A stretch of DNA of 64,000 nt, taken from the NCBI GenBank assembly GCA_964509675.1, contig CAZDXC010000001.1, positions 6,336 to 70,335 on the forward strand, in the 5' to 3' direction. A program made the position numbers and the translations under genes. Each line of letters opens with the position of its first letter. Within the stretch, counting starts at the first letter, position 1. This stretch comes from Candidatus Woesearchaeota archaeon (GTDB taxonomy: Archaea; Nanobdellota; Nanobdellia; Pacearchaeales; GW2011-AR1). Shown piece by piece: positions 18,029-18,417 of this stretch. The notes beneath the pieces were generated by a model, which saw nothing but the letters and a program-made list of their open reading frames with translations, had not been told where the DNA came from and did not search any database.

Positions 18029-18417
18029 TATATTAATAATTATTAGATTTTGATGTTGAGAAAAATTGAATATGAAATTTATTGATTAAAAATATTAGTT
18101 ATCTTTGCATCATATCTTAATGCAGCTAATAAACCTTTTTCTTTCCTTTCTGTTCTTCCTCTTATAATTCTATATAAATCTCCAAAATGTAACATGGTTA
18201 ATTTTAATTCAAGAATAAAAGGATTTTCATCTGAAAGTTCATAACAATTTTTTTTATTCCATGCATCTTTTTTGTCTTGCAAATATTTCTTTGCTATTCT
18301 TACTAAACTTGTCATGCTTTTTTTGTGATTTATCACTATTTAAGTTTTATTGTTCTTGAGTTTTGATTATAAAAATCAAAATCCTCAACATCAAAATCCC
18401 ACTATTAATTTTAAACC
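18029..18417 (-). mobile_element. intervening sequence in 23S helix 45 (about 389 nt) with internal ORF
   Basis: Lies between ...GGCGGCGCTC and GAGCGGCCGGGTAAG; perfect 15-bp inverted repeat at 18046-18060 / 18384-18398. Confidence 0.85.
18079..18336 (-). CDS. hypothetical protein inside the helix-45 insertion (ATG at 18315 gives 78 aa)
   Basis: Only sizeable ORF in the loop; TATA-like CTTAAATA about 26 nt upstream of ATG 18315. Confidence 0.55.
   Translation of the reverse strand: MINHKKSMTSLVRIAKKYLQDKKDAWNKKNCYELSDENPFILELKLTMLHFGDLYRIIRGRTERKEKGLLAALRYDAKITNIFNQ

What the first reader, a model, noticed from the sequence alone, without database searches (positions are those of the whole stretch)
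18029..18417. Bacterial-style ORF-bearing intervening sequence in 23S helix 45 of an archaeon
Seen: about 389 nt replace the helix 45 loop, closed by a perfect 15-bp stem plus an outer TTAATAGT/ATTATTAA stem, with a 78-85 aa ORF and a TATA-like box inside. I found no group I core and no clean BHB. Established: helix 45 is the classic IVS site in bacteria (RNase III excision, fragmented 23S, sometimes four-helix-bundle ORFs), whereas archaeal rRNA introns normally use BHB splicing. Inference: an unusual element whose processing route is unclear.
Basis: partly seen in the sequence, partly recalled or inferred. Interest (0 to 1): 0.7.

Follow-up and report, generated by a model that had tools for sequence, protein, structure and literature searches.

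The report
Gene-carrying insert in archaeal 23S helix 45
An archaeon's large ribosomal RNA gene carries a 389-base insert with its own small gene, built like the intervening sequences of bacterial 23S rRNA. The same insert type sits at the same spot in at least two other archaea, although archaea are reported to lack the enzyme that removes such inserts in bacteria.

Summary
The 23S rRNA gene lies on the minus strand (16301..19588), and 389 nt (18029..18417) replace the loop of helix 45.

- **Structure:** the insert is closed by an 8-bp helix and a perfect 15-bp helix. It contains a BRE/TATA promoter and a 78-aa ORF on the rRNA strand.
- **Other copies:** the same kind of insert sits at the same site in two other archaeal 23S genes (L005/L006 and L090).
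- **Copy outside the 23S:** one copy, with short 23S flanks and a different cargo gene, lies outside the 23S in MAGs labelled Nanoarchaeota.
- **Stems:** 12 of 30 base pairs show compensatory changes across the four copies.
- **Protein:** the ORF belongs to a small family with no annotation and no match to known folds. It is under moderate purifying selection and is not the bacterial IVS protein.
- **What it is not:** no group I or II intron and no conserved bulge-helix-bulge motif were found. A canonical bulge-helix-bulge in the neighbouring tRNA-Ala intron shows the search works.

Best reading: an archaeal counterpart of the bacterial helix-45 intervening sequence, modular and carrying a gene. 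How the RNA is processed (fragmented, retained or spliced) is still untested. It is a new variant of a known kind and of moderately high interest.

The parts
18418..18425 (-). 5' strand of the native helix 45 stem (CG-g-CGCUC)
   Evidence: Rfam alignment. It covaries with the 3' strand in L090 (G-C to A-U, C-G to U-A, C-G to A-U).
18029..18417 (-). Whole intervening sequence, 389 nt, replacing the helix 45 loop
18409..18417 (-). 5' junction loop GGUUUAAAA. UUUAAAA is invariant in all four copies.
18401..18408 (-). 5' strand of the outer 8-bp helix (UUAAUAGU)
   Evidence: It pairs with 18033..18040. Four of its pairs have changes on both sides.
18384..18398 (-). 5' arm of the perfect 15-bp clamp helix (GAUUUUGAUGUUGAG), preceded by an unpaired GG at 18399..18400
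   Evidence: Five compensatory changes separate it from L005/6.
18360..18383 (-). Local hairpin (GAUUUUGAUU-UUUAU-AAUCAAAAC) just inside the clamp. It is specific to this copy.
   Evidence: MFE fold. It is not conserved in the other copies.
18336..18350 (-). Archaeal BRE/TATA-like promoter (AUAAAAC UUAAAUAG), 21 nt upstream of the ATG. It implies a leaderless mRNA.
   Evidence: The same box at 20-22 nt spacing is found in L001, L002 and L078. Function is inferred.
18079..18315 (-). Cargo gene: a 78-aa basic helical protein (P0001); coordinates include the stop codon
   Evidence: Family. dN/dS 0.18-0.45. AlphaFold2 pLDDT 86.5.
18061..18078 (-). Conserved 3' motif AUUUCAUAUUCAAUUUUU (TCATATTCA followed by a T-run) after the stop codon. 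It may be a terminator or processing signal.
   Evidence: Present after the cargo ORFs in L078, L006, L090, L001 and L003, and after the ITS ORF at about 19720..
18046..18060 (-). 3' arm of the 15-bp clamp helix (CUCAACAUCAAAAUC)
18041..18045 (-). Bulge UAAUA on the 3' side, between the two helices (UAAA in L090, UAAAA in L078)
18033..18040 (-). 3' strand of the outer 8-bp helix (AUUAUUAA)
18029..18032 (-). 3' junction loop UAUA (UAAA in L006, CAUA in L078)
18020..18028 (-). 3' strand of the native helix 45 stem (GAGCG-GC-CG)

Best explanation
This is a gene-carrying intervening sequence in the terminal loop of 23S rRNA helix 45 of an AT-rich archaeon, probably a DPANN or Nanoarchaeota-type organism. 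It belongs to a small family of modular elements.

**Anatomy.** The two ends are conserved. An 8-bp helix, a small asymmetric internal loop and a 15-bp helix continue helix 45 as a long clamp. Between the ends lies an exchangeable cassette: an archaeal BRE/TATA promoter, one small ORF, and a 3' motif ending in a T-run.

**Proposed working.**
1. The insert is co-transcribed within the pre-23S.
2. The clamp zips its ends together, so helix 45 closes and the 50S subunit assembles with the insert pointing into the solvent.
3. The cargo protein is made from a separate, largely leaderless mRNA that starts at the internal promoter, not from the rRNA.
4. The A/U-rich, mRNA-like interior is most likely removed without re-ligation. 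This would happen by endonucleolytic nicking and exonucleolytic trimming back to the clamp. It would leave a two-piece 23S held together by the clamp, the bacterial IVS outcome reached without RNase III.

**Shown:** the site, the stems and their covariation, recurrence at the same site, the conserved ORF family, the promoter box, and the absence of group I, group II and canonical BHB features.

**Inferred:** co-transcription, promoter use, and everything about excision or fragmentation.
For: - **Site and size:**
- **Clamp helices beyond chance:**
- **Same insertion point in independent archaeal 23S genes:**
  - L005 and L006 share a 400-nt identical overlap and carry a 550-nt insert.
  - L090 is the end of a 131.9-kb contig with a full 16S-tRNA-23S operon and a 473-nt insert.
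- **Covariation:** 98.3% of cells are paired, against 37-52% when the partners are slid by 1-3 columns. Twelve of 30 pairs change on both sides, three of them in the native helix 45 stem. G.U pairs fall on the rRNA-sense strand. The only two unpaired cells are in the copy outside the 23S.
- **ORF:**
  - It is intact in all copies, with dN/dS 0.18-0.45.
  - The family has about nine real clusters among 1.84 billion representative proteins.
  - The predicted helical fold is confident.
- **Promoter:** the TATA box lies 20-22 nt from the ATG in four copies.
- **Not an intron or ribozyme:** no such family matches.
- **No conserved BHB:**, with the positive control.
- **Bacterial precedent of the same design:** the Coxiella IVS is 428 nt, sits in helix 45, has a 28-bp terminal stem and carries an ORF (PMC4990558).
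Against: - There are no RNA data, so excision, retention and splicing cannot be told apart.
- RNase III is reported absent from archaea (PMC8708148). No RNase III signature motif is present in the six-frame translation of the 64-kb window. The nuclease step therefore has no candidate enzyme.
- The ends are identical between the window and L090: 34 of 34 nt at the 5' end and about 51 of 52 at the 3' end. Their 16S genes are only 86% identical and their 23S flanks 82%. A passive clamp does not explain sequence-level conservation. It points to recognition by a protein, or to recent lateral transfer.
- The copy outside the 23S keeps the whole frame, where no ribosome needs it.
- The covariation rests on four hand-built constructs from which the variable linkers were removed.
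Confidence: 0.5

Rival explanations
1. Retained expansion segment. The insert stays in the mature 23S as a long helix-45 extension, the counterpart of eukaryotic ES15L. The internal gene is simply transcribed from its own promoter.
For: - Helix 45 is a solvent-exposed expansion site (my own knowledge).
- E. coli 23S rRNA that retains unprocessed Salmonella IVSs still works (Gregory et al. 1996, whose title is cited in PMC8708148).
- No nuclease candidate and no cleavage motif were found.
- The clamp and its covariation fit this reading equally well.
Against: - The interior is an unstructured, A/U-rich, mRNA-like stretch of about 300 nt that differs completely between copies, including a membrane-protein gene in one. 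Such RNA is unlikely to survive intact on a ribosome.
- Insert length varies from 389 to 550 nt with no conserved internal fold.
Confidence: 0.25
2. Relaxed bulge-helix-bulge (BHB) intron. The archaeal splicing endonuclease cuts a non-canonical BHB near the base or the top of the clamp, and RtcB ligates the exons and circularises the ORF-bearing intron.
For: - The organism uses BHB splicing: its tRNA-Ala intron has a canonical hBHBh' motif.
- L005/6 has a strict 3-nt/4-bp/3-nt candidate at the base: UUAU GUAG [ACG] UAGU / ACUA UUAC [AUA] AUAA.
- The window has a weak candidate with 2-nt and 3-nt bulges at the top of the 15-bp helix.
- Some archaeal endonuclease types accept relaxed motifs (my own knowledge).
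- My strict scan also failed to find good BHBs in the 16S and 23S processing flanks, so a negative result is weak evidence.
Against: - No candidate is conserved in position among the window, L090, L078 and L005/6.
- The conserved unpaired regions have the wrong geometry. The 5'-strand loop is proximal, the 3'-strand bulge is distal, and 8 bp rather than 4 bp separate them.
- Every candidate must break the covarying helices.
- AU-rich sequence produces many chance matches: 1280 under relaxed settings in the window.
- The ORF is not a homing endonuclease.
Confidence: 0.17
3. DNA-level mobile element of MITE or small-transposon type. The 15-bp inverted repeats would be terminal repeats bound by a transposase supplied in trans, and the RNA stem would be incidental.
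For: - The inverted repeats are perfect.
- The ends are identical between hosts whose 16S genes are only 86% identical.
- The cargo varies between conserved ends.
- A copy exists outside the 23S.
Against: - There is no target-site duplication. In L005/6 the outer repeat is strictly inverted, not direct.
- The copy outside the 23S carries 21 nt and 53 nt of 23S flank, which a cut-and-paste element would not take along.
- The arms of L005/6 differ from the window's at 5 of 15 pairs, always with a compensating change, and G.U pairs occur only in the rRNA sense.
- There is no other copy of the arms in the 64-kb window.
- No transposase is present.
Confidence: 0.06
4. Assembly artefact, or a dead rRNA gene.
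For: The sequence comes from a metagenomic assembly, and rRNA regions are prone to misassembly.
Against: - The same junctions are seen in independent assemblies.
- The 23S matches the full-length archaeal model, positions 1-2987, and lies next to an intact 16S and tRNA.
- The helix 45 stem covaries across the insert.
Confidence: 0.02

Closest known systems
Bacterial 23S rRNA intervening sequences in helix 45 (Salmonella, Leptospira, Yersinia, Campylobacter; Coxiella burnetii, 428 nt with the S23p ORF)
   Same: - The same helix loop is replaced.
- The size range matches.
- Terminal complementary sequences form a long stem.
- An ORF lies on the rRNA-sense strand.
- The distribution is sporadic.
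- Relatives of the ORF also occur as free-standing genes elsewhere (PMC4990558).
   Different: - The host is an archaeon, and archaea are reported to lack RNase III (PMC8708148).
- The ORF family is unrelated to PF05635.
- The ORF has its own archaeal promoter. In Coxiella the ORF appears not to be expressed.
- The cargo is exchangeable, and a copy with rRNA flanks exists outside the 23S.
Archaeal rRNA introns spliced at bulge-helix-bulge motifs (Thermoproteales and Desulfurococcales; many carry LAGLIDADG homing endonuclease genes)
   Same: An ORF-bearing insert in an archaeal rRNA gene, in a host that has the splicing machinery.
   Different: - No conserved BHB is present.
- The ORF is not a homing endonuclease.
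- I am not aware of helix 45 being one of the known intron positions. I did not check this against a full list of positions.
Group I introns in LSU rRNA of Woesearchaeota, Pacearchaeota and Micrarchaeota (positions 1931, 2500, 2593; PMC6125680)
   Same: The same broad host group, and the rRNA gene serves as a haven for selfish elements.
   Different: No group I core was found by Rfam at the gathering threshold or at E <= 10. The site is different.
Insertion sequences in rRNA genes of CPR bacteria (PMC11270868)
   Same: Small-genome, probably symbiotic hosts carrying many rRNA insertions. Some of those insertions lie at the classical IVS sites and lack intron features.
   Different: Those hosts are bacteria that have RNase III. 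Their ORFs are mostly LAGLIDADG proteins.
Eukaryotic expansion segment ES15L and the large expansion segments of Asgard archaea (PMC7594248)
   Same: An extension of the rRNA at a surface helix.
   Different: Expansion segments do not carry promoters or protein genes, and they are retained in the mature rRNA. Retention is unknown here.

Membership tests
Bacterial-type 23S IVS | Replaces the terminal loop of helix 45 (or helix 25 or 9) of the 23S rRNA | tested here: met
   Rfam alignment. The same site is occupied in L005/6 and L090.
Bacterial-type 23S IVS | Complementary termini form a long stem that extends the helix | tested here: met
   An 8-bp and a 15-bp helix, with 0 of 2000 shuffles matching. 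Covariation.
Bacterial-type 23S IVS | Excised by RNase III without ligation, giving a fragmented 23S | not testable with these tools
   No RNA data are available. No RNase III motif is present in the 64-kb window. RNase III is reported absent from archaea (PMC8708148). The rest of the genome was not available.
Bacterial-type 23S IVS | The ORF, when present, belongs to the 23S rRNA IVS protein / four-helix-bundle family (PF05635) | tested here: not met
   No Pfam or NCBIfam hit at E <= 10. No PDB match by sequence or by fold.
Archaeal BHB intron | An hBHBh' motif (3-nt bulge, 4-bp helix, 3-nt bulge) at the exon-intron boundaries | tested here: not met
   No canonical motif lies at the boundaries in the window, L090 or L078. 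The one candidate in L005/6 is not conserved. The finder recovers the tRNA-Ala BHB. Relaxed forms cannot be excluded.
Archaeal BHB intron | Exons ligated and intron circularised | not testable with these tools
   This needs RNA-seq or RT-PCR.
Group I / group II intron | A conserved catalytic core that covariance models can detect | tested here: not met
   Searches find no intron or ribozyme family, even at E <= 10.
rRNA expansion segment | Retained in the mature rRNA | not testable with these tools
   No RNA data are available.
MITE / small DNA transposon | Terminal inverted repeats plus target-site duplication, and multiple dispersed copies | tested here: not met
   Inverted repeats are present, but there is no target-site duplication. 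No further copies of the arms occur in the window. The copy outside the 23S carries rRNA flanks.

The most novel reading that the evidence does not exclude
DPANN-type archaea host a family of modular, promoter-bearing gene cassettes that use 23S helix 45, and loci derived from helix 45, as a landing pad. A pathway that is neither RNase III nor canonical BHB splicing removes them from the rRNA. This would give the first naturally fragmented 23S rRNA, or true IVS, known in Archaea. The ends are identical in hosts whose 16S genes are only 86% identical, which would then mark a dedicated recognition factor still to be found.
Probability: 0.3. Interest if true: 0.8.

Novelty: new variant of a known kind. 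Interest (0 to 1): 0.64.

Why it matters
IVS-type inserts and fragmented 23S rRNA are treated as a bacterial and organellar trait that depends on RNase III. In archaea, rRNA inserts are expected to be BHB or group I introns.

A recurrent, covarying, gene-carrying helix-45 insert in archaea means one of three things. An unknown archaeal RNA-processing route exists, or the splicing endonuclease accepts very unusual substrates, or these ribosomes tolerate a 0.4-0.55 kb mRNA-like appendage. Any metatranscriptome that contains these organisms can separate the three.

The element also shows that rRNA operons in small-genome archaea shelter expressed small genes. These inserts lengthen the 23S gene at helix 45, which could confuse annotation or alignment pipelines that expect an uninterrupted gene.

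Tried and rejected
- **Bacterial IVS protein, toxin, defence or phage protein.** There are no hits in Pfam, NCBIfam, PHROGs or PADLOC. There are no PDB sequence hits, no Foldseek hits in the PDB, and only noise in BFVD.
- **Viral origin.** Two scans of viral contigs found no relatives.
- **Split 23S gene.** I considered this when L009 showed only 21 nt of 23S upstream of the insert. I rejected it because L078 and L085-L089 show that the 3' rRNA homology also stops, after 53 nt, and ordinary genes lie on both sides.
- **Target-site duplication.** In L078 the outer repeat looks direct only because it is nearly palindromic. In L005/6 it is strictly inverted.
- **K-turn at the internal loop.** There are no tandem G.A pairs. 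I checked this by eye only.
- **Self-cleaving ribozymes and snoRNA-like motifs.** Only noise appears at E between 1 and 10.
- **Searches that failed or found nothing.**
  - The search for homologous proteins with the family alignment failed twice.
  - The search for related loci with A3 had no usable conserved stretch.
  - The first genome-contig scan found nothing.
  - Sixty-eight of the 69 hits to the junction pattern in genomes were chance matches in bacteria.
  - L077 from the metagenome scan was also a chance hit.
- **Literature.** My searches found no report of an archaeal helix-45 IVS. This is absence within an open-access library, not proof that none exists.

Full report
**What is there.** Rfam finds a complete archaeal rRNA operon on the minus strand: the 16S at 21781..20352, an intron-containing tRNA at 20231..20095, and the 23S at 19588..16301. 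An archaeal RNase P RNA lies elsewhere in the window. In the covariance-model alignment of the 23S, 386 nt stand where 4 loop positions are expected, in the small hairpin CGCUC...GAGCG. The flanking sequence identifies the hairpin as helix 45; that assignment to E. coli numbering is from my own knowledge.

On the rRNA strand the insert reads, from 5' to 3':
- junction loop GGUUUAAAA;
- 8-bp helix strand UUAAUAGU;
- unpaired GG;
- 15-bp helix arm GAUUUUGAUGUUGAG;
- a local hairpin;
- a BRE/TATA box (AUAAAAC UUAAAUAG);
- after 21 nt, the ATG of a 78-aa ORF (18315..18079);
- the motif AUUUCAUAUUCAAUUUUU;
- the 3' arm CUCAACAUCAAAAUC;
- bulge UAAUA;
- AUUAUUAA;
- UAUA;
- the helix 45 3' strand.

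The 15-bp perfect helix is never reached in 2000 shuffles. The whole region folds with z = -4.0. The window has 32.8% G+C.

**It recurs at the same site.** The ORF (P0001) has one close database relative. A profile search of 1.84 billion representative proteins finds about nine real relatives of 66-116 aa. They share the motif DAW..KN..L..NP.L.ELKWT.EHF.DLY.I...G..ALKYD..VT..R. Their contigs gave the key evidence.
- **L005/L006.** P0006 is 38% identical to P0001. It lies on two contigs with a 400-nt identical overlap. One contig starts in an archaeal LSU (model positions 1000 to about 1300), and the insert begins right after GCGCUC. The other ends ...CAUAAUAAA|GAGCGUUCGGGUAAGCAGGCGUG. This is the same site, with a 550-nt insert.
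- **L090.** P0007 lies at the end of a 131.9-kb contig that carries a full 16S-tRNA-23S operon. A 473-nt insert again sits between the two strands of helix 45.

The 16S of L090 is 86% identical to the window's, and the 5' part of its 23S is 82% identical. Yet the first 34 nt of the insert are identical, and the last 52 or so differ by a single 1-nt indel. The interior differs in promoter type and in the ORF, whose C-terminal two-thirds are 47% identical.

**The stems are RNA-level features.** I built constructs from the four copies (helix 45 stem, junction loops and the two helices, with the linkers and interior removed). In them 98.3% of pair cells are standard pairs, against 37-52% when the partners are slid by 1-3 columns. 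Twelve of 30 pairs change on both sides.
- Three of those pairs are in the native helix 45 stem. In L090, CGCUC/GAGCG becomes CAUUU/GAAUG.
- Five are in the 15-bp helix, between the window and L005/6.
- One-sided changes are G.U pairs in the rRNA sense.
- The only two non-pairs are in the copy that lies outside the 23S.

Two caveats apply. There are only four sequences, and I derived the structure from them.

**Modularity and a copy outside the 23S.** A pattern taken from the 5' junction found one archaeal hit among species-representative genomes, a MAG labelled Nanoarchaeota. It also found a metagenome contig that extends the same locus. The same frame is present there: GGUUUAAAAUUAGUAAUAU GUUUCUAAUGUUGGGAAA ... 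UUUCUCAACAUCAGAAAC UAAAAAUUAGUAACAUA.

This frame encloses a different gene, a 91-aa predicted membrane protein (P0013). It is flanked by only 21 nt (5') and 53 nt (3') of 23S sequence. Five assemblies, three of them NCBI MAGs, agree on the surroundings:
- upstream lie genes for the proteasome alpha subunit, SBDS, Rrp4, Rrp41, Rrp42, RpoK, enolase and uS2;
- downstream lie PBECR2 and LigD_N genes.

So this is neither a chimera nor a split rRNA gene. It is a helix 45 fragment with its insert, sitting at another chromosomal place. L001 (P0002, 63-65% identical to P0001) looks like a decayed version of the same thing. It has non-rRNA genes upstream, arms that no longer pair, and a 3' relic, UAUAGGAUGUUCUGGUAAGCAGGCGUG, that matches the 23S of L090. 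P0003 lies next to a NAC gene. More distant family members lie among ordinary or unknown genes.

**The ORF is a real gene of unknown function.**
- It is intact in every copy, with dN/dS of 0.18-0.45.
- An AlphaFold2 model built from 11 sequences is confident (pLDDT 86.5) and shows four helices.
- Foldseek finds nothing in the PDB and only noise in BFVD.
- Pfam, NCBIfam, PHROGs, PADLOC and PDB sequence searches are all empty.
- It is therefore not the PF05635 protein of bacterial IVSs.
- A TTAAATA or TTTAAATA box lies 20-22 nt before the ATG in the window, L001, L002 and L078. L005, L003 and L090 have a TTTATATA box further upstream, followed by a Shine-Dalgarno-like sequence. I infer transcription from an internal archaeal promoter. 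In the window's type the mRNA would be leaderless.

**What it is not.**
- **Not a group I or II intron or a ribozyme.** Rfam finds none at the gathering threshold or at E <= 10.
- **Not a canonical BHB intron.**
  - I wrote a bulge-helix-bulge finder that looks, on each strand, for an outer helix, a 4-nt central helix, a bulge and another helix.
  - It recovers a textbook motif in the tRNA-Ala intron of this operon: CGUCC CUUG [CAC] GCG / CGC CGAG [AAC] GGAUG.
  - At the insert boundaries it finds only AU-rich chance matches, and none keeps its position among the four copies.
  - The unpaired regions that are conserved have the wrong handedness and spacing for a BHB.
  - One caveat: the same strict scan also finds no good BHB in the 16S and 23S processing flanks. 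A relaxed motif therefore cannot be excluded.
- **Not a DNA transposon.**
  - There is no target-site duplication.
  - The compensatory changes and G.U pairs point to RNA.
  - The copy outside the 23S carries rRNA flanks.
  - No other copies of the arms occur in the window.

**How it probably works.** The design is that of bacterial helix-45 IVSs. The Coxiella element, for example, is 428 nt with a 28-bp terminal stem and a sense-strand ORF, and RNase III excises it (PMC4990558). I propose that the clamp lets helix 45 close so the 50S subunit can assemble, and that the cargo is expressed from its own promoter.

For the fate of the insert in the rRNA I rank three outcomes:
1. removal without ligation, by unknown nucleases trimming back to the clamp;
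2. retention;
3. relaxed BHB splicing.

RNase III is reported absent from archaea (PMC8708148), and no RNase III motif is in the window. None of the three outcomes is shown. The ends are identical in sequence between hosts that are only distantly related. A structural clamp does not need that. It suggests either a specific binding factor or recent lateral transfer followed by exchange of the cargo.

**Novelty and verdict.** My searches of an open-access library found group I introns in LSU genes of DPANN lineages (PMC6125680), insertions in CPR bacterial rRNA genes (PMC11270868) and bacterial IVSs. They found no report of an archaeal helix-45 IVS. That is absence within the library, not proof that none exists. 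I rate the finding a new variant of a known kind. The interest lies in the open question of processing, the modular cargo and the copy outside the 23S, all of which existing metatranscriptomes can test directly.

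Noticed in passing
window 15722..16174 (-): A single-domain LAGLIDADG homing-endonuclease ORF (MDSITLAYIAGFLDGDGS...) starts 127 nt downstream of the Rfam 3' end of the 23S. It has one in-frame TGA at codon 53, where Trp would fit (ILD*LKKIFG). It could be a pseudogene remnant of an rRNA intron or a case of recoding. The long ORFs elsewhere in the window use the standard stop codons.
   Followed up: partly
window 19728..20045 (-), motif at about 19720..19700: A 105-aa ORF with no Pfam hit lies in the spacer between tRNA-Ala and the 23S. 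It is followed by CACAAAUCAUAUUCAC-AAAA-GUGAAG. The same 3' motif (TCATATTCA, with or without a hairpin) follows the cargo ORFs of the helix-45 inserts in L078, L006, L090, L001 and L003. It may be a shared terminator or processing module for small genes lodged in these rRNA operons.
   Followed up: partly
window 20095..20231 (-): tRNA-Ala(UGC) carries an intron of about 66 nt with a canonical hBHBh' motif. Rfam detects the tRNA but ARAGORN misses it. The homologous tRNA in L090 has no intron.
   Followed up: yes
L078 (minus strand) and L085-L089; NCBI MAGs GCA_018821425.1, GCA_043824235.1, GCA_018828985.1: A helix 45 fragment (21 nt and 53 nt of 23S) with an insert carrying a 91-aa membrane-protein gene sits after the uS2 gene of the exosome-RpoK-enolase-uS2 gene cluster. 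Two of the contigs break inside the 3' arm. That would be expected if the same sequence is repeated in that genome's own 23S.
   Followed up: partly
L001 440..1012: This looks like a decayed copy of the element. The ORF is intact (P0002) and the TATA box is kept, but the arms no longer pair. Only a 3' relic of 23S remains, closest to the helix 45 sequence of L090, and the sample series is the same (ZHAN22-2).
   Followed up: partly
L090 2013..3632: The 16S-23S spacer of this relative is about 1.6 kb long. It holds several small ORFs (85, 78, 53 and 63 aa; two look like membrane proteins), at least one of them (the 85-aa ORF) preceded by a TATA-like box. These archaea seem to keep small genes routinely inside rRNA operons.
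   Followed up: no
window 18061..18078 compared with L078: The window's 3' untranslated region looks like that of L078 with 17 nt deleted between two direct ATTCA repeats. The deletion removes the small hairpin UUCAC-UUCG-GUGAA.
   Followed up: no
window 3394..3770 (+): The archaeal RNase P RNA match spans 377 nt against a 288-position model, so it may also carry an insertion.
   Followed up: no
window 16120..16300, 19589..19730 and 20232..20351, 21782..21990: A strict scan finds no good canonical BHB in the flanks of the 16S or the 23S, although the 16S flanks can form a long processing stem. rRNA end processing in this lineage may use relaxed motifs.
   Followed up: partly
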